A DNA stretch of 59,042 nt, taken from IMG/VR virus record IMGVR_UViG_3300030110_001528, positions 1-59,042 of that record. The stretch is one strand, 5' to 3'. This document shows, in pieces, positions 12,649-57,958 of the stretch. The stretch's first letter is position 1. The number at the start of each line of letters is the position of its first letter. The stretch is from a virus. Taxonomy: Duplodnaviria; Caudoviricetes. Under the pieces are notes generated by a model that worked only from the letters and a program-made list of their open reading frames with translations, was not told the DNA's origin and searched no databases. The position numbers were made by a program, and so were the translations under genes.

Positions 12649-12815
12649 TACTTCTTGACTAGTTTGTAGCCTTTCTTATTAGCCGCTGATCTAATCTGTG
12701 CTACAGTCATTACTTTACCGCCATTTTTCATGCCTTTAGACTTAACTTTACCGCCATTTTTCATGCCTTTAGGTCTAACTTTACCGCCATTTTTATAGCC
12801 TTTTTTCTTCATCAT
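12648..12815 (-). CDS. 55-aa basic protein with three KG(M/Y)KNGGKV repeats (below the ORF-track cutoff)
   Basis: MMKKKGYKNGGKVRPKGMKNGGKVKSKGMKNGGKV...; AGGAG RBS; 33-bp tandem repeat. Confidence 0.7.
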   Translation of the reverse strand: MMKKKGYKNGGKVRPKGMKNGGKVKSKGMKNGGKVMTVAQIRSAANKKGYKLVKK

Positions 12816-33750: not shown

Positions 33751-34404
33751 TCATTTTCTACCTCCTACTGCATAACCCATAAAATTATACGATTGCCAAA
33801 TTTTAGAAACATTACCCAATTGTTTTAATTCTTCATTCAATTCTCTTTCAGTTTTACAAAACATCGAAACGGCTAACTGGGTATCTTTATCCAGAATCTC
33901 CTGATCCTGAAAATTTGTTCGCTTTTCCTGAACGTGCATCCTGTGTATAAGTGTCTGGATAATTGTGTTGTCAAGATATACTTTCTCAGCGATTAATAAT
34001 ATTGCACCCCGATTGATTCGTTCTTTTATCAACTGGAGTATACGTTTTCTTTTTCCCGATCCGAGAAACTGGAGCGTGAACATAGATATGATTACCGAAA
34101 CATTGTTCGGCTCTGGTAATATATCCTCGATGTCACCCAGTTTAAAATCAAACCCCGAATGGATTGTTTTTAATTTATTTTTATCAATCCCGATGTATTC
34201 ACAGTTTTCAGCTTTTGGCATCTGGGATAGAAACCGACCCGTTGAACACCCGATGTCAATGACTGCACTCTCTGGTTGAGCATATTCACACCCGATTCCT
34301 GTAAATATTTTAGTGAGCGAAGAATAGTTCGGGATTGACAACTCGATATGTTTGTCAAAATCCTCTATTGCTTTAAAATTAAATATTTTATAATGATGTG
34401 TCAT
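33751..34404 (-). CDS. CmoA-like class I SAM-dependent protein (candidate carboxy-SAM synthase)
   Basis: FDKHIELSIPNY, DIGCSTG, FTLQFL, IAEKV and WQSYNF match the CmoA family pattern. Confidence 0.75.
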   Translation of the reverse strand: MTHHYKIFNFKAIEDFDKHIELSIPNYSSLTKIFTGIGCEYAQPESAVIDIGCSTGRFLSQMPKAENCEYIGIDKNKLKTIHSGFDFKLGDIEDILPEPNNVSVIISMFTLQFLGSGKRKRILQLIKERINRGAILLIAEKVYLDNTIIQTLIHRMHVQEKRTNFQDQEILDKDTQLAVSMFCKTERELNEELKQLGNVSKIWQSYNFMGYAVGGRK

Positions 34405-35545
34405 TTTCTTGCACCTGTTTTATTCTAGTTCCGAGCCATTCCATAACATTAATAGACATAGCCCGACCACAGGCTTCATATCTTTTTGATACAGGACATT
34501 CCTCCTTTGATTTGCCACGATAAGGTATTTGCGTGTAATTATCAGGCAAACCCTGAAGCCTTTCACATTCCAATGGCGTTAATCTCCGAACAATAGTGTT
34601 CCGAGCAACGCATGGTTGTCTGTTACCCCCTGTCATTGCGTTAAGCGTGGGAGAAACTTCCTCTTTTCTCACTCTTGGTGCTCCTCCATCAGGCGATCTG
34701 GGTTCAAAAACCACACAGGAAGAATTGTTCGGTTCACGCATCAGGACGGAATGATGATCGTGAGCTGTAATTTTGTACATAGCTCCATTCTGGTTTAATC
34801 CACTACCATTTGACTTTGAATGCCCCGATGCAATAGCAACCAAATCGGTGGCTGACTTGTAATCACGAGCGGCTATTGTTCCTGCGATGTCGTCTTGAGT
34901 GTATTGATCGCTTCGTGTAAGGCGGTGCGTAATTGTTCGGGTATCTTCTTCCCTTTTCTTCCTGCTCGGCGGAGGATTCCATGACAATGCTTTTCCGTCA
35001 AATAAAACCTTCGCTGGATTTCGCCAGTTTCGAGAATGTCCGACAACGAAGATACGCCTTCGCATTTGCGGGATTGCTCTTGGGAATCGTTGTGTTCGTA
35101 TGTATTGAGTGTCAAGAACCCTGTAGGCGAACCCATACCCGCATTCTGCCAACCCTCCGAGGAAGGAAGCAAGGTCTTTTCCTCCGTTAGATGACAAGAC
35201 ACCGGGGACATTTTCCCAAAGTACCCACTTGGGATTAATTCTTTTAATAAGGCGTATAAACTCAAGTGCGAGATTTCCTCTATCCGATTTAACTCCCTCC
35301 CGAAGTCCTGCCACGCTGAAGGTAGCACATGGTGTTCCTCCAACCAAGACATCTGGAGATTTTCCTCCGATGTTTTTCTTTTCGATTTTCGTAAAGTCGC
35401 CATAATTTTTTACCTCTGGGTAATGATGTTTTAAAATAGCAGAACGGAAAGGTTCTATCTCAGACACACCTATACATTCGTATCCAAGAGGTTCCCACGC
35501 CACACTTGCACTCTCTATTCCGCTACATATTGATAAAAATTTCAT
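34388..35545 (-). CDS. DNA cytosine-C5 methyltransferase family (candidate carboxymethyltransferase)
   Basis: SGI motif I, GTPC catalytic motif, WENV, QMRRRIF and RRLTPLECERLQG; motif X reads CGRAM. Confidence 0.9.
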   Translation of the reverse strand: MKFLSICSGIESASVAWEPLGYECIGVSEIEPFRSAILKHHYPEVKNYGDFTKIEKKNIGGKSPDVLVGGTPCATFSVAGLREGVKSDRGNLALEFIRLIKRINPKWVLWENVPGVLSSNGGKDLASFLGGLAECGYGFAYRVLDTQYIRTQRFPRAIPQMRRRIFVVGHSRNWRNPAKVLFDGKALSWNPPPSRKKREEDTRTITHRLTRSDQYTQDDIAGTIAARDYKSATDLVAIASGHSKSNGSGLNQNGAMYKITAHDHHSVLMREPNNSSCVVFEPRSPDGGAPRVRKEEVSPTLNAMTGGNRQPCVARNTIVRRLTPLECERLQGLPDNYTQIPYRGKSKEECPVSKRYEACGRAMSINVMEWLGTRIKQVQENDTSL

Positions 35546-38870: not shown

Positions 38871-39118
38871 TTCCCAATCTCCTCTAAATTTGTTTTCATA
38901 AATGACATTGTAAATAATTCTTCATTTTCATGTATAGCTGTAGCGTAACCACTATCAGCAATGATGCCATTTTCTAACACTTTTTTTTCTATTATACTGC
39001 CTATCCTATCTATAACATCGTCATCTGATAAAAAAACACCGTCAACAGAAGTAAAAAAATCTATATTCTTTTCCCCTTCCTTAGTGTTTAAAACAATTTT
39101 TATTTCTACCTGTGTCAT
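38828..39118 (-). CDS. Hypothetical protein
   Basis: 96 aa, coupled to the helicase stop. Confidence 0.55.
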   Translation of the reverse strand: MTQVEIKIVLNTKEGEKNIDFFTSVDGVFLSDDDVIDRIGSIIEKKVLENGIIADSGYATAIHENEELFTMSFMKTNLEEIGNWEKMVSMENQTIH

Positions 39119-40794
39119 TATGCCGCTTCCTTTTTAATTGCATTGGTTATCATCGCATCAATTGCATCTTTATTCCACAAATAATTTAAATAACAAGCAC
39201 CTCTGTACTTAGTCCATGAAAAATCAAATCCTGATATTATAATACCTGACCTAGATAACATTTCTTTTTGTTTGTCGCTTATTCTTTCATTCAACCACCT
39301 CTTTCCTTTCTTAGCACTATTACTGTCTTCAATCTCTCTCAGAAAGTCATCAGCCGATGCAATAGCCTGTTGCTTAGTTCCAATACTAACCATTCTTGCA
39401 CGACCACCAGAACGCTTTACAATGCCACAGGATAAATCACCTAAATCTGCTACCAAAGCAAAACCATTAAACCCTGTCGCTGACAAACACTTACCTGTAC
39501 CGAACAAATCCATCCACCGAAAAGGAGAACGATCAATAAGATCAATCTCTGTCATATTAAACTCTCTAAGATCAGTGTCTTGGTCTTTACCAAACTCGTA
39601 ACCACACATCGGACATTCTCTGACACTTAAAGGAACAACTGATTTGCACTCTGGACAAACCTTTTCTGGTGCTTGTCCTTGTAATTCTGATTCAGAACCC
39701 TCTAAATTAACATCATCTTCTAAAGAACCGTGTGTTAATACTGACGTTCCAAAGTCCAGCACAACGCAATCAGTTTTAATTATGTTCGGGTGTTCATCTG
39801 GATTTATAGTTCTAAGACCTCGACCAATCATCTGTACCATCGTTGCCTTATATGAACAGGGTCTTGTTAAAATAATACAGGATACAGGAGGTGCATCAAA
39901 GCCTTCAGTAAGCACTGCTACATTAACAACAACTTGCAAATCACCATTTGTCAAATCGTTCAGGATGTTAGCCCGAACATTTTTGTCTGTTTCACCAGTA
40001 ACAACCTCTGCTCTTACATTCTTTCCAACAAATTCATCACACAAATCTTCAGCATGAGCTACTGTTGAACAGAATACAACTGTCTTTCTGTCACTTGCTT
40101 TTTCCAACCACTCATCAACAACACGTTCATTGATAGCTCTCTTATTCATAATACGAGCTACTTGATCCATATCGAAATCAACCACAGTTTTCCGAACATT
40201 TTGTAATTCAGAACGTACACCAACGTCAATGACGTAGGTTTTTGGGGTGACAAGGAAACCTTCACGAATGAGTGTCGATATTTCAATTTGATGGGAACAA
40301 TTGGTAAAGACCTCACGTAAACCTTTCTTATCCCCACGATTAGGCGTAGCAGTAAACCCAACGATCTCAACTTTGTCGTTAGCATTTTTAGCATGATTAA
40401 TAATCCGAGTATAGGTATCTGCAACAACGTGATGACTTTCATCGACAACCACCATATCTATTTTTTTCATGTTTTCTAAATTGTTCGGTCTGGATAATGT
40501 TTGCACCATTGAAAATACAGTATCACCAGACCAATTTTTTTGTTCAGCATTAACTACACTGGTAGATATGTTCGGGTTAATACGCTGGAACTTATCTATA
40601 TTCTGATTAACCAGCTCATCTCTATGTTGAAGAACCAGAACATTTTTTCGTGAACCATGACGTTTGCCAATGAGAGATGATAACATTATTGTTTTACCCG
40701 CACCCGTTGGAGCAACAACAACAGTATTGCCATGCTTATCCAAAGCTTCCGATGCAGAATCAACTGCAACTTCTTGATACGGTCTTAATAACAT
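39118..40794 (-). CDS. SF2 DEAD/H helicase (RadD-like, zinc finger)
   Basis: LRPYQ, PTGAGKT, DESH, TATP, QMIGRGLR and CPEC..CPMC; start at 40794 after AGAAAGTGAGGTG. Confidence 0.9.
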   Translation of the reverse strand: MLLRPYQEVAVDSASEALDKHGNTVVVAPTGAGKTIMLSSLIGKRHGSRKNVLVLQHRDELVNQNIDKFQRINPNISTSVVNAEQKNWSGDTVFSMVQTLSRPNNLENMKKIDMVVVDESHHVVADTYTRIINHAKNANDKVEIVGFTATPNRGDKKGLREVFTNCSHQIEISTLIREGFLVTPKTYVIDVGVRSELQNVRKTVVDFDMDQVARIMNKRAINERVVDEWLEKASDRKTVVFCSTVAHAEDLCDEFVGKNVRAEVVTGETDKNVRANILNDLTNGDLQVVVNVAVLTEGFDAPPVSCIILTRPCSYKATMVQMIGRGLRTINPDEHPNIIKTDCVVLDFGTSVLTHGSLEDDVNLEGSESELQGQAPEKVCPECKSVVPLSVRECPMCGYEFGKDQDTDLREFNMTEIDLIDRSPFRWMDLFGTGKCLSATGFNGFALVADLGDLSCGIVKRSGGRARMVSIGTKQQAIASADDFLREIEDSNSAKKGKRWLNERISDKQKEMLSRSGIIISGFDFSWTKYRGACYLNYLWNKDAIDAMITNAIKKEAA

Positions 40795-40977
40795 TTGCAC
40801 CTCACTTTCTATAATGTGGGAAGTTTTGCGTCCTACGTACTTCCCAAACGTAGTCCTAACGCACATCGAGGTGTTGACGCTAGAGAACTAAAAATCTTAT
40901 ATTTACAGGGTACAATCATACACGGATATGTCAATTGCACCTTCTTACAGCCTTTAAAACAAGCCGTTTTTTACCAA

Positions 40978-41634
40978 AACAGCCTTAACTCACCCCAACT
41001 GAATTTAACTCAGCCAACCTCAACATATCGAAACCCAACTGCCTAAACATGACTAACAGCACCTCTCCCCAAAATAACACAACTCAACTCAACTGCCAAA
41101 ACCCAACCAAGCACATCTCAACATACAACACCTTAACTGCCTGAACTTAACTGATCTTATCGCACACCAACATGACATATCGCACCTCACCCCAACTGCC
41201 TCAACTCAACTCAACTGAACAAAACTTAGCTTACTCCACCCAAAGGAACCAAACCCAATCTTACACAACCCAAACTGCCGTAACATAACAGAACTTAACC
41301 AACCGAACACTACCCGACCCAGACGAAATGCACCATACCTCAACTGCCATACCGAAACGCAAGTTAACTCAACGCAACTCTCCTCACCTCAACATATCAA
41401 CGGAACTGCCTTAACCAAACTTAAATTAACTGACCCGAACTGACCCAAGCAAACCCAACCCCAACTGAACTGCCGAAACATAACTAAGCAAACCTCACCC
41501 CAACTCAACGCAACGCAACTGCCTTAACAAAACCTAACTGACCTGACCCCTCCTCAACACTACACACCAAAACAGGCTGACCACAACGCACTAAAACCTG
41601 CCTAAACATGACTAACAGCACCTCTCCCCAACTT
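40978..41634 (-). ncRNA. Pentamer-periodic guide-like RNA array: about 11 units of (NN-GNU)n-NN-GGCAGUU
   Basis: AACTGCC at 41037, 41091, 41135, 41194, 41273, 41342, 41404, 41468 and 41517, with variants at 40978, 41571 and 41595. Spacings are 5n+4 except one of 62. It lies downstream of a RAMP-like gene. Confidence 0.8.
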
Positions 41635-41962
41635 CTTCATTTCTTCTTCTATATGCTTTGGATTTACACCCATTATTTTTGTATTTTGTTCCATCCTTAA
41701 ATTTTGAGGAAGGATTAATTATAATACAATCGTGAGTGCAATTTTTTCCAGATGGTTCTCCATAAGTTTTTCTATACTCGCAAATCTTTGCTTTTATTTT
41801 TATGTTAGTTTTTATAGAGGTGTCATGTTTATGACCAACAAACTTTAAATTAATGTCAATAGGAACACTAATTAATTCACAACCATCTTCTTCTCTAGTT
41901 TCTTGTATTTCATGGTCAGAAATTAATTTATTTATTTCCTTTAAAATATTTTTATCCATCAT
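41612..41962 (-). CDS. Hypothetical protein between the partner gene and the array
   Basis: 116 aa, AT-rich, GGGAGAG RBS; its last codons lie in array sequence. Confidence 0.55.
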   Translation of the reverse strand: MMDKNILKEINKLISDHEIQETREEDGCELISVPIDINLKFVGHKHDTSIKTNIKIKAKICEYRKTYGEPSGKNCTHDCIIINPSSKFKDGTKYKNNGCKSKAYRRRNEEVGERCC

Positions 41963-42004
41963 TCACTCTCCCATTGATAAAATATGTGTCTTAATGAAGT
42001 GAGG

Positions 42005-42538
42005 CTATACAGCCTCACTCTTCACACTTTCTGATTCTAATGAGTCAGCAATTTCTGATAGTGAATCAATATCAATACCTTTTAAAGCACAGATACCATC
42101 ATGTCTATTAATCCATGCTCTTAATTCTCTACAGGCTTGACGACATAATTCAGCTACAACTTCTGGGTTGTTTAAATCAAATCTTTGATAGCCACCACCT
42201 TGAGCACGATTATCTATAGGTGAAATAAATGTAGGAAACCGAACAACTTTTTCATCTACAACTGTAATTGAGTCAGATATATCTATTGTTTCAGTCGGTA
42301 AATCCTTATATTGAAATGTAATTTTACAACCTGTAGCAAATTGTCTAGCTATTTGAATACGTTGCTTTAAAGCCATCTTTGCATCATCGTCAAAACCGAA
42401 CAATTTATAAACAGGATGATCTGGATTTCCTTGTAGCCAATCGACAAACTCGGCAGGAACATAACTGTTCCTGCCTGTCTGGTTAAGGTAATCGTTAATT
42501 ATTTTTTCACGATCCTTCTTACCAAATCTTTTTGCCAT
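42005..42538 (-). CDS. Partner protein of the RAMP-like gene
   Basis: PAEFVDW...PDHPVY..F.FDD...A..QRIQIARQ; start MAKRF at 42538, right after the upstream stop. Confidence 0.7.
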   Translation of the reverse strand: MAKRFGKKDREKIINDYLNQTGRNSYVPAEFVDWLQGNPDHPVYKLFGFDDDAKMALKQRIQIARQFATGCKITFQYKDLPTETIDISDSITVVDEKVVRFPTFISPIDNRAQGGGYQRFDLNNPEVVAELCRQACRELRAWINRHDGICALKGIDIDSLSEIADSLESESVKSEAV

Positions 42539-42539
42539 A

Positions 42540-43316
42540 CTATGCAACTTCCTTCAGAAGATCGGCTCTTTTAACTCTTTCTTCCTGCATTGCTTCGTAT
42601 AATTGATGGCTAGTATTATCATGTGACTCAATCTCTGGATTTTCCAAAGCAAGTTTCTGACAAGTAGCACCTTCTTCTTTGGTCAACTCATCCCAAAGTT
42701 TTTGGTCTGAAGTTTCCTTGAGTTTATAACCACCCATAGGACCACCTTTCTCTATTCTCCAATCACCAAGACCACATAAAGTTCCTGCATTAGTCAAAAG
42801 AGAAGTAATATTCAATTGACTAAAAGTAGGACTAATATATCGAATAGTAACCTCAGAACACCATCTAGGTAGTTTAGCTCTAGTGCGAATATCGGGAGTT
42901 CTATTTATATCAGAAGAACGAACCACAGACATATTCATATAAGGTTTACCCCAAATATTAATATGTTCACCTACAACGTAGATACCACGATTAATACCTG
43001 CTTTAGTAACACCTTCAGTTTCAAGGGCAGAAGTTGCCATACCTCTCTTGATACCTGTAGAAGGAAAACTAAGATAAGAACCATCTTGACCATTGATGTA
43101 ACAACTATCCACAAATTCTTCTTCGGGATTGTGCTTGATATCCTTCTTCTGTGCGGCTGTTTTTTTAGCGGCTCCCATAAACAACGTACTCATAGCCTTG
43201 AGTGACATTGAATTATAAATTAAAGGACCTGTACCAACAATCTTCAATTTTATTGTTGATTGCTTTAGTCTTTCAACAGTTAATCCTGTTGATTTAGTTT
43301 CTTTTTTAATTGGCAT
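42540..43316 (-). CDS. Stand-alone RAMP/Cas7-like RNA-binding protein
   Basis: KIVGTGPLI (beta1), FPSTGIKRGM (P..S.KG-type motif) and a Gly-rich loop GLGDWRIEKGGPMGGY. Confidence 0.75.
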   Translation of the reverse strand: MPIKKETKSTGLTVERLKQSTIKLKIVGTGPLIYNSMSLKAMSTLFMGAAKKTAAQKKDIKHNPEEEFVDSCYINGQDGSYLSFPSTGIKRGMATSALETEGVTKAGINRGIYVVGEHINIWGKPYMNMSVVRSSDINRTPDIRTRAKLPRWCSEVTIRYISPTFSQLNITSLLTNAGTLCGLGDWRIEKGGPMGGYKLKETSDQKLWDELTKEEGATCQKLALENPEIESHDNTSHQLYEAMQEERVKRADLLKEVA

Positions 43317-57475: not shown

Positions 57476-57958
57476 CTAACTTGTGCTTACGTCTGTCCAA
57501 GTATCGCCTGTGTGTGTAATATCTGTCCAAGTATCGCCAGAATGTGTGACCTCTGTCCACGTCACAGTAACACTCGGTGTAACTTCTGTAAATAACAATT
57601 CTCCAATAGATGATTGCGTTACATTAAAATCTTGTGTAGATACGCCTGTTAAAATAGCTGTACTTACGGACAATTGTTCGGCTAAAAATTCTATATTTGT
57701 TTCTAATTCTGTGCCTTTAACAAATCGTCCAGGAATATCGCCTAATCCAAGATTAAAACTTATACTGGTAACAGGGATGTCAGGAACAGACGTACCAGCA
57801 GAGGTTTGAGTATATATCGCTGATATATCGGCAATACCTGTCAATATACCTATTCCAGCAGATGCTTTAGAAGCAATGCCACTCATCTCTGCATTAGCTT
57901 CAAGTATTTTACTTATACTACTAATCGGTGTTTCAGAAAAAGCGACATGACCTAACAT
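57476..57958 (-). CDS. Virion protein with C-terminal TWT repeats
   Basis: MLG..AFSETPIS start; TWTEV/TWTDI/TWTDV. Confidence 0.6.
   Translation of the reverse strand: MLGHVAFSETPISSISKILEANAEMSGIASKASAGIGILTGIADISAIYTQTSAGTSVPDIPVTSISFNLGLGDIPGRFVKGTELETNIEFLAEQLSVSTAILTGVSTQDFNVTQSSIGELLFTEVTPSVTVTWTEVTHSGDTWTDITHTGDTWTDVSTS

What the first reader, a model, noticed from the sequence alone, without database searches (positions are those of the whole stretch)
41404..41467. One guide unit spells the Vsr endonuclease signature, indicating a wobble-skipping code
The 12 variable dinucleotides on the minus strand are CA GG TG TT TG CA CG CA AA AA TG AA. As codon positions 1-2, all 12 fit H-G-C-F-W-H-R-H-K-N-C-K, the HGCFWH motif of Vsr very-short-patch endonucleases. 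This implies the target is read as NNxNNx with every third base skipped, so synonymous mutation would not allow escape. vsr genes commonly accompany C5-MTase/R-M loci, so a host defence island or rival element is the likely target. No vsr gene is seen in this phage.
Basis: partly seen in the sequence, partly recalled or inferred. Interest (0 to 1): 0.92.

Follow-up and report, generated by a model that had tools for sequence, protein, structure and literature searches.

The report
Phage VIPR guide aimed at vsr genes

Summary
Written as NNx codons, the pattern has 16 exact matches in 596 Gb of genomes (about 0.004 expected). All 16 lie in frame in Vsr-sized ORFs, and 14 read HGCFWHRHKNCK. Pfam called 2 of 2 tested ORFs Vsr.

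The unit belongs to a 10-unit array downstream of a 258-aa protein. That protein's model matches CRISPR Cas7-type RAMPs, and its profile aligns with the studied SUSP1 Vipr protein across the G-loop.

This is therefore a VIPR system, described in three 2026 preprints. In VIPR, NN dinucleotides pair with DNA, every third target base is skipped, and the skipped base usually falls on the wobble position. Other units read a tyrosine-integrase motif, an ARPP-1 motif and, tentatively, a ParB_N motif. A related phage's array reads C5-methylase motif IV.

Differences from the studied type: the scaffold is G-K-U rather than GGY, units have no tails and are separated only by GGCA, and the targets are family-wide catalytic motifs.

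Expression, host and effect are untested. I file it as a new member of a known kind.

The parts
42540..43316 (-). vipr candidate, 258 aa, a RAMP (Cas7-like) protein
   Evidence: AF2 model: pLDDT 80.3, pTM 0.74. The listed Foldseek PDB hits are all chains of CRISPR effector-complex entries (type III Csm/Cmr, type VII, Cas7-11/gRAMP, type I Cascade), 8 with E <= 0.001, best E 1.5e-4, TM 0.28-0.49; reading those chains as Cas7-family subunits is my inference. hhalign of its family against SUSP1 Vipr: Prob 95.5, E 1.6e-8, across NAGxLCG(V/L)GDWR. No Pfam family; phrog_4652, unknown function.
42005..42547 (-). accessory ORF, 180 aa (vap-like by position only)
   Evidence: Lies between vipr and the array in the 7 close relatives checked. 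No Pfam or PHROG family. No similarity to SUSP1 vap1. AF2 pLDDT 61.5, too low for a fold search.
41999..42018 (-). hairpin over the stop codon of the 180-aa ORF
   Evidence: GTGAGGCTGTATAGCCTCAC. In L044, L026 and L061 the same hairpin is followed by a T-run and then directly by the array.
41612..41962 (-). 116-aa Cys-rich ORF inserted between the accessory ORF and the array; not part of the system
   Evidence: No homolog in any of the 11 loci searched. No Pfam or PHROG family. Its 3' end is a copy of the 3' part of unit 9.
41598..41631 (-). 34-nt direct repeat, copy of 41039..41072 (3' part of unit 9 plus GGCAG)
41524..41602 (-). unit 1: irregular 5' part, then GCCT + 10 pentamers (41577..41524) spelling [FL]VV[DE]G[HQ][HQ][RS][FL][KN]
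   Evidence: Viral scan of 9 NN gave 3 hits, all in frame as VVDGH[HQ]R[LF]K. ParB_N PF02195 was listed for 2 of 3, one above the Pfam cut-off. Tentative.
41475..41523 (-). unit 2, 9 pentamers, target not found
   Evidence: Compared only with loci in hand.
41411..41474 (-). unit 3, the finding: GGCA + 12 pentamers; NN spell HGCFWHRHKNCK of Vsr, sense orientation
41349..41410 (-). unit 4, 62 nt, register broken by a 3-nt insertion (TAT); target not found
41280..41348 (-). unit 5, 13 pentamers; read antisense it spells V[IM][RS]FHDLRHEAIS, the tyrosine recombinase motif
   Evidence: Viral scan of 9 NN: 78 loci, 77 read FHDLRH[ED]AI, 72 in ORFs >= 150 aa. The window unit matches 20-23 of 26 read bases. 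Phage_integrase PF00589 in 3 of 3 tested.
41201..41279 (-). unit 6, 15 pentamers, target not found
   Evidence: Viral scan gave 6 hits with no coherent family.
41142..41200 (-). unit 7, 11 pentamers; spells GEAIIGAKQN(R) of ARPP-1 proteins, sense orientation
   Evidence: Metagenome scan of 9 NN: 38 hits, 10 form one low-GC family. The window unit matches 20-21 of 22. ARPP-1 PF20208 in 3 of 3 tested.
41098..41141 (-). unit 8, 8 pentamers, target not found
   Evidence: One 15/16 match in L149 in a short frame, probably chance.
41044..41097 (-). unit 9, 10 pentamers, conserved in related arrays, target not found
40985..41043 (-). unit 10, 11 pentamers, conserved last unit, target not found
40961..40984 (-). 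hairpin at the array end, followed by GUUUU (terminator-like)
   Evidence: 10-pair stem; z -2.05 for the 146-nt stretch. Conserved in L062 and L064. Not found by the consensus terminator scan.

Best explanation
The 64 bases are one guide (vrRNA unit) of a VIPR system: a phage-encoded, RNA-guided DNA-binding system made of a small RAMP protein (Vipr), an accessory gene and an array of pentamer repeats. By analogy with the studied SUSP1 system, the array is transcribed with the minus-strand genes. One Vipr protomer binds each pentamer and buries the scaffold triplet (here G-K-U), presenting the two variable bases. Those dinucleotides pair with two target bases, one target base is flipped out, and so on along the filament. 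Bound DNA is silenced. In unit 3 the 12 dinucleotides equal codon positions 1-2 of HGCFWHRHKNCK in Vsr endonucleases, so the guide would pair with the template strand of vsr genes whatever their synonymous codons. Shown here: the spelling, its exclusive match to vsr, the RAMP fold and homology to SUSP1 Vipr, the vipr-array linkage, and the 1-base skip. Inferred: transcription, processing at GGCA, filament formation, DNA binding, repression, and why vsr is a target.
For: (1) Spelling: 16 exact genome matches against about 0.004 expected, 16 of 16 in frame in Vsr-sized ORFs; Pfam Vsr in 2 of 2 tested. In viral contigs the first 9 NN gave 5 hits, 4 of them in Vsr-like ORFs.
(2) Protein: the 258-aa ORF models as a RAMP and aligns with SUSP1 Vipr, Prob 95.5, E 1.6e-8. 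The alignment includes D185-W186-R187, C181 and R146, which line up with D177, W178, R179, C173 and R138, the residues the structure paper says hold the scaffold triplet.
(3) Linkage: a vipr homolog lies just upstream of the array in 9 of 10 array-bearing loci, down to 26-27% identity.
(4) Array: over 707 pentamers in 66 units, position 1 is G in 86%, position 2 is T 63% / G 26%, position 3 is T 93%, and positions 4-5 are near even. Units hold 8-15 pentamers. The array body folds no better than shuffles, z +1.17.
(5) Skip rule: 35 units not used for fetching gave 0, 7, 0 and 0 near-perfect matches at skips of 0, 1, 2 and 3.
(6) Other guides read conserved motifs with the skip on the wobble base: integrase, ARPP-1, C5-methylase motif IV next to vsr, a DExH helicase motif.
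(7) Homologous guides switch between synonymous codon families: CG/AG at Arg in the Vsr unit and TC/AG at Ser in unit 6.
(8) Guides occur in both sense and antisense orientation, as expected for DNA targeting.
(9) Published mechanism.
Against: There is no evidence of expression: the two sequencing-run tools could not be used (one search was answered 'closed'). The scaffold is G-K-U, not GGY. There is no 3' tail or pseudoknot after each unit, unlike SUSP1. The accessory ORF is unrelated to SUSP1 vap1. Six of the 10 window units have no identified target (U2, U4, U6, U8, U9, U10), and only U6 of these was scanned in a collection. In homologous units the NN columns do not vary less than the scaffold columns: 8 and 6 of 95 variable, against 11, 14 and 5 of 95. 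Fold-search TM-scores are modest (0.28-0.49). The exact vsr matches come from Verrucomicrobiota, Kiritimatiellia, Lentisphaerae, Spirochaetota, KSB1 and Rhodobacteraceae, none shown to be a host. With up to 2 mismatches only 1 of 401 genomes of one class matched, and that was the seed genome itself.
Confidence: 0.88

Rival explanations
1. The Vsr guide, and the array as a whole, is a counter-defence weapon against the host rather than against rival viruses. It would silence host R-M-linked vsr/methylase operons and other conflict genes such as ARPP-1.
For: The vsr hits sit beside C5-methylases, and in L003 beside a BpuJI-like restriction enzyme. In L107 the ARPP-1/DUF2130 pair lies next to BrxA/BrxB. 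The phage has its own C5-methylase, so a mismatch endonuclease tied to 5-methylcytosine could plausibly matter to it; that last point is inference.
Against: The integrase guide matches 78 viral contigs. 4 of the 5 viral-contig hits of the 9-NN Vsr pattern lie in Vsr-like ORFs, and one (L068) has a methylase next to vsr. L089 carries ARPP-1 beside a phage-like helicase. These all fit mobile elements. The published natural targets are satellites, prophages and other VIPRs. PADLOC gave no hit for ARPP-1 proteins.
Confidence: 0.3
2. The units are orphan or decoy guides that serve or misdirect another element's Vipr, as described for satellite-borne solo vrRNAs.
For: Solo vrRNAs exist. L046 has an array of the same build with no vipr detectable by tblastn.
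Against: In the window and in 9 of 10 array loci a vipr gene lies directly upstream on the same strand.
Confidence: 0.05
3. The array is a periodic protein-binding RNA or DNA (like the TRAP site of GAG triplets with 2-nt spacers, or replication iterons). The NN would be meaningless spacers and the Vsr spelling a coincidence.
For: 5-nt periodicity with a conserved triplet. The array lies in the replication module between Sak4 and helicase genes.
Against: 16 exact matches against 0.004 expected, all in one protein family and in frame. Independent units spell integrase and ARPP-1 motifs, and a related phage's unit spells the methylase motif. Only the 1-base skip gives matches.
Confidence: 0.02
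4. The guides pair with mRNA, not DNA.
For: Unit 5 is antisense to integrase mRNA.
Against: Units 3 and 7 have the same sense as the mRNA and cannot pair with it. The studied system binds double-stranded DNA on either strand.
Confidence: 0.03

Closest known systems
Type II VIPR of Escherichia phage SUSP1 (bioRxiv 10.64898/2026.04.26.720920, 720927 and 2026.10.15.759431)
   Same: A small RAMP protein with the same G-loop motif. vipr, then an accessory gene, then the array, all on one strand. Pentamers made of a scaffold triplet plus NN, 8-15 per guide. 1-base skip aligned to the wobble position. A guide aimed at a recombinase catalytic motif.
   Different: The scaffold is G-K-U, with position 2 mostly U, rather than GGY. 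There is no ~40-nt tail or pseudoknot and no spacer between guides, only GGCA. The protein is 258 aa against 195 aa. The accessory gene is unrelated. The phage is a marine HTVC023P-like podophage by TerL. The targets identified are family-wide motifs: Vsr, integrase, ARPP-1, ParB_N.
'Staggered' vrRNA arrays mentioned in the same preprint (legend of fig. S18)
   Same: Guides abut without tails. Unit lengths are 5n+4 for 8 of 9 window units. That equals whole pentamers overlapping by 1 nt if GGCAG is counted as a pentamer sharing its G with the next GTT.
   Different: I saw only the legend. The figure and supplements are not held, so identity of architecture, type number and scaffold consensus cannot be checked. 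The text says this architecture was not among those confirmed by sRNA-seq.
Class 1 CRISPR Cas7 filaments (Cascade, Csm, Cmr)
   Same: RAMP fold. One protomer per repeat of the guide, with periodic flipped bases.
   Different: No CRISPR repeats or spacers, no cas genes nearby. The period is 5 nt with 2 paired, not 6 with 5 paired.
TRAP-RNA recognition (recalled from memory, not from a call)
   Same: A conserved triplet with 2-nt spacers at a 5-nt period.
   Different: Here the 2-nt 'spacers' carry the information. The protein is a RAMP, not a TRAP ring.

Membership tests
VIPR system | A Vipr protein: minimal RAMP fold with G-loop and thumb | tested here: met
   AF2 model pLDDT 80.3. The top PDB matches are all chains of CRISPR effector complexes (type III, VII, III-E, I), which I read as Cas7-type RAMPs. 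hhalign to SUSP1 Vipr: Prob 95.5, E 1.6e-8, over the G-loop.
VIPR system | Residues that hold the scaffold triplet (SUSP1 D177, W178, R179, C173, R138; paper 720927 section 5) | tested here: met
   They align with D185, W186, R187, C181 and R146. D185, R187 and R146 are invariant in 37 relatives, and W186 is not among the invariant or nearly invariant columns; the consensus has F there. H17 was not covered by the alignment.
VIPR system | Array of tandem pentamers, a conserved triplet alternating with hypervariable NN, about 9-16 per guide | tested here: met
   707 pentamers: G .86 / T .63 and G .26 / T .93 / N / N. 8-15 pentamers per window unit.
VIPR system | The scaffold triplet is GGY | tested here: not met
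   GTT 384, GGT 135 and GAT 29 of 707. The preprint allows 'a related consensus' and lists NNNGG, YNNNG and NNNNG variants; G-K-U is not named in the text I could read.
VIPR system | NN pair with the target under the 1-nt skip rule | tested here: met
   By sequence only: and the skip 0/1/2/3 comparison giving 0/7/0/0. Binding was not tested.
VIPR system | The skipped base falls on the codon wobble position | tested here: met
   16 of 16 Vsr hits, 10 ARPP-1 hits and 77 of 78 integrase hits.
VIPR system | An adjacent accessory (vap) gene | tested here: inconclusive
   A conserved 180-aa ORF lies between vipr and the array in the 7 close relatives but not in L029 or L031. It has no known family, no similarity to vap1, and a poor model.
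VIPR system | Invariable 3' tail, a pseudoknot in the SUSP1 clade (type II) | tested here: not met
   Units are separated by GGCA only. SUSP1 shows tails. There is a single hairpin at the array end. This is a feature of type II, not of all types.
VIPR system | vrRNAs are expressed and bound by Vipr; targets are repressed | not testable with these tools
CRISPR-Cas | Direct repeats of 20-50 nt separating unique spacers, with cas genes | tested here: not met
   No such repeats. No cas families in the 28 ORFs scanned with Pfam, apart from a weak PDDEXK_1 hit to the ORF that PHROGs names a Cas4-domain exonuclease.

The most novel reading that the evidence does not exclude
This marine VIPR lineage carries 'family-level' guides. 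Each reads the most constrained catalytic motif of a whole protein family: Vsr, C5-methylase motif IV, tyrosine recombinase, ARPP-1, ParB_N, DExH motif II. One phage could then silence that gene class in any host or rival it meets, across phyla, including host defence and repair genes. That would make VIPR a broad-spectrum RNA-guided counter-defence system, not only a weapon against one known satellite.
Probability: 0.3. Interest if true: 0.75.

Novelty: new member of a known kind. Interest (0 to 1): 0.55.

Why it matters

This locus extends VIPR in four ways.
- It sits in an uncultured marine podophage lineage.
- It uses a different scaffold triplet (G-K-U).
- Its array is very compact, with no tails.
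- Its guides spell textbook catalytic motifs of Vsr, integrases and a conflict-system protein. A related phage's array also spells C5-methylase motif IV.

Such guides can be decoded by eye into protein motifs, which offers a direct way to read what uncultured phages are fighting. The G-K-U scaffold, set against conserved D-W-R residues, also tests how Vipr reads its scaffold.

Tried and rejected
- Rfam gave no match in the window, and there are no tRNAs.
- blastn of the array against GenBank phages gave no match.
- My first idea was a TRAP-like protein-binding RNA with NN as spacers. I dropped it.
- I asked whether the whole array (about 120 pentamers) encodes a complete Vsr. It does not: the neighbouring units do not continue the Vsr sequence.
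- The wobble base is not encoded by the scaffold. Reading NN plus the next G gives the wrong residues.
- No unit matches the phage's own genome above shuffled controls at any skip. Relatives' helicase guide does not match their own loci or the window.
- The unit 7 pattern gave 0 hits in viral contigs.
- Unit 5 and unit 7 patterns with up to 3 mismatches gave 0 hits in the 5 genomes holding L016, L006, L012, L013 and L003.
- I first read the single hit of the 10-NN unit 5 pattern (L071) as chance, in the wrong frame. The ORF list showed an integrase on the other strand, which led to the antisense reading.
- Unit 6 gave 6 hits with no common family.
- Of the 38 metagenome hits for unit 7, 28 belong to no common family and look like chance or unrelated matches.
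- I expected NN to be more conserved than the scaffold in homologous units. It is not clearly so.
- The 180-aa ORF model was too poor for a fold search, and the ESM Atlas gave only viral hypothetical clusters.
- Papers: none of the 8 listed of 16 papers holding two of vrRNA / vsr / very short patch / ARPP holds vrRNA. 'vsr' and 'methyltransferase' occur 0 times in the main text of two VIPR preprints. I did not check the structure preprint for these words. Supplements, including target tables data S3 and figs S17-S18, are closed and may already cover this lineage, its scaffold or such targets.

Full report
**The observation.** The window is a complete 59,042-bp virus record with terminal repeats. 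All long ORFs lie on the minus strand. Between a helicase gene (39118..40866) and a 116-aa ORF (41612..41962) lies a stretch of about 650 nt. It is A/C-rich on the plus strand and holds no ORF of 60 aa or more.

On the minus strand this stretch breaks at each GGCAG into units of 79, 49, 64, 62, 69, 79, 59, 44 and 54 nt. Eight of these nine lengths are 4 plus a multiple of 5. After the GGCA, each unit is a run of pentamers: a triplet, mostly GTT or GGT, followed by two variable bases.

The unit at 41474..41411 has 12 pentamers.

**Is the Vsr spelling chance?** No.
- The pattern with one free base after each dinucleotide has 24 specified bases. It found 16 exact matches in 596 Gb of genomes. I expect about 0.004 by chance.
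- All 16 are in frame in ORFs of 137-190 aa. Fourteen read HGCFWHRHKNCK, one reads ...HKKCK and one ...HKNCN.
- Pfam names 2 of 2 tested ORFs as Vsr.
- The first nine dinucleotides found 5 places in viral contigs. Four are Vsr-like ORFs reading HGCFWHRHKGC, and one is a short unrelated frame.
- The phage itself has no such site and no Vsr family match.

**What the array is.** A scan for the delimiter plus three GTT pentamers, followed by a scan for relatives of the neighbouring 180-aa ORF, brought in related arrays. After removing duplicates (L043 = L029, L057 = L018, L063 = L062) and one plain tandem repeat (L050), there are 10 array-bearing loci.

Over 707 pentamers in 66 regular units the composition is G 86% at position 1, T 63% / G 26% at position 2 and T 93% at position 3. 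The last two positions are near even. The G/T-rich strand is always the coding strand of the flanking genes.

Arrays gain and lose whole units. L064 and L065 are otherwise near-identical but differ by three units.

The Vsr unit recurs with informative changes:
- AA to GG at the tenth position, giving HKGCK, a real Vsr variant.
- CG to AG at the Arg position.
- Unit 6 switches TC to AG at a Ser position.

**The protein.** Upstream on the same strand lie a 258-aa ORF and a 180-aa ORF, neither with a Pfam family.
- The 258-aa ORF has 354 relatives at E <= 0.001 in the protein collection.
- A model built from 37 of them has pLDDT 80.3.
- Its best PDB matches are all chains of CRISPR effector complexes (type III Csm and Cmr, type VII, Cas7-11/gRAMP, Cascade), which I read as Cas7-type RAMP subunits. 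Best E is 1.5e-4 and TM-scores are 0.28-0.49.
- A homolog sits directly before the array in 9 of 10 array loci, including two at 26-27% identity. L046 shows none.

**The literature.** A text search turned up three 2026 preprints on VIPR systems.
- The first I read as abstract, Results and two Methods sections, plus word searches that showed a Discussion passage and figure legends. It describes a phage-encoded minimal RAMP (Vipr) and an accessory gene. The vrRNAs have 9-16 pentamers in which a GGY triplet alternates with NN. The NN pair with double-stranded DNA while one target base is skipped. The skipped base mostly falls on the wobble position. The outcome is transcriptional repression.
- The structure preprint I read as abstract and two sections. 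One protomer binds per repeat, the triplet is buried, and the named contact residues are D177, W178, R179, C173 and R138.
- The third I saw as abstract and passages. It reports a guide on a satellite recombinase's catalytic core, and solo vrRNAs.

I fetched SUSP1. Its Vipr aligns with my family profile at Prob 95.5, E 1.6e-8, across NAGxLCG(V/L)GDWR, and the named residues line up.

**A test of the skip rule not biased by my own searches.** I took 35 distinct units that had not been used to fetch anything and compared them with 181 loci (1.45 Mb) at skips of 0-3. Near-perfect matches numbered 0, 7, 0 and 0.
- Five of the seven are a related phage's unit GG GG CC CC TG CA GC TT. It matches 15 of 16 read bases in C5-methylase genes at GGPPCQ, next to the vsr genes. 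Pfam confirmed methylase in 3 of 3 tested.
- One is a relative's unit on a DExH helicase motif in L089.
- One, unit 8 on L149, is probably chance.

**Other units of this window.**
- Unit 7 matches GEAIIGAKQN(R) in ARPP-1 proteins of low-GC contigs, 20-21 of 22 read bases. These genes pair with DUF2130. In one locus they lie beside BrxA/BrxB, and in another beside a phage-like helicase.
- Unit 5, read antisense, matches (R)FHDLRHEAIS of tyrosine integrases. Of 78 viral loci, 77 carry the motif, and Pfam confirmed integrase in 3 of 3 tested.
- The 3' half of unit 1 matches VVDGH[HQ]R[LF]K in 3 of 3 hits. Two carry ParB_N, one above the Pfam cut-off. This is tentative.
- Units 2, 4, 6, 8, 9 and 10 remain without a target.

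**Differences from the studied system.**
- The scaffold is G-K-U rather than GGY.
- No tail follows each guide, whereas SUSP1 has tails of about 40 nt plus spacers.
- The array body is no more structured than shuffled sequence.
- A single hairpin closes the array.
- The accessory gene is unrelated to vap1.
- TerL places the phage near Pelagibacter phages HTVC027P and HTVC023P at 56-62% identity.
- The legend on 'staggered' arrays with 1-nt overlaps may describe this build, but I could not see the figure.

**Limits.** Nothing here shows expression, binding or repression. The host is unknown. A targetable vsr is rare: 1 of 401 genomes of one class, and that was the seed itself.

**Verdict.** The kind is already known, so I file this as a new member, with a distinct scaffold, distinct array build and distinct target set.

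Noticed in passing
41612..41962 (-), with 41598..41631 and 41039..41072: A 116-aa Cys/His-rich ORF sits between the accessory gene and the array. It has no family and no homolog in the 11 loci searched. Its 3' end is a 34-nt copy of the end of unit 9, which suggests it was inserted by recombination within the array.
   Followed up: partly
34388..35545 (-): The phage's own C5-cytosine methylase (PF00145, E 7e-50) has GGTPCATFS where the methylases next to the vsr hits read GGPPCQ. A relative's GGPPCQA(F) guide would therefore mismatch it at three dinucleotides.
   Followed up: partly
L046:2016-2480 (+): An array of the same GGCA + GTTNN build, very regular, with no vipr homolog detectable upstream. 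One unit spells GLGK[S/R]T[S/R]LL, which resembles a Walker A motif (recalled). It may be a solo array or have a very divergent Vipr.
   Followed up: no
L050:11303-11420 (-): Four tandem copies of GGCA + GTTCC GTTCG GTTCC GTTCG GTTCC GTT in a viral contig. It could be a plain tandem repeat, or a repeated guide of the same scaffold.
   Followed up: no
L107:455-5372 and L089:201-4135: ARPP-1 (PF20208) is always followed by a DUF2130 protein. In L107 the pair lies beside a sigma-54-type AAA protein and BrxA/BrxB. In L089 it lies beside a split phage-like ResIII helicase. It may be a mobile two-gene conflict cassette; PADLOC does not know it.
   Followed up: partly
GenBank phages: Distant relatives of the 258-aa protein (25-30% identity) occur as 'hypothetical protein' in 25 Mycobacterium, 5 Gordonia and 1 Pseudomonas phage records. 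I did not check whether pentamer arrays lie beside them.
   Followed up: no
12712..12803 and 57492..57559: Tandem repeats of 33 nt (2.8 copies) and 30 nt (2.3 copies) inside other parts of the genome.
   Followed up: no
40874..40903 (+): A promoter-like site (TTGACG, 18 nt, TATATT; 10 of 12) on the plus strand points into the array from its downstream end. The number of such sites in the region is not above shuffles.
   Followed up: no
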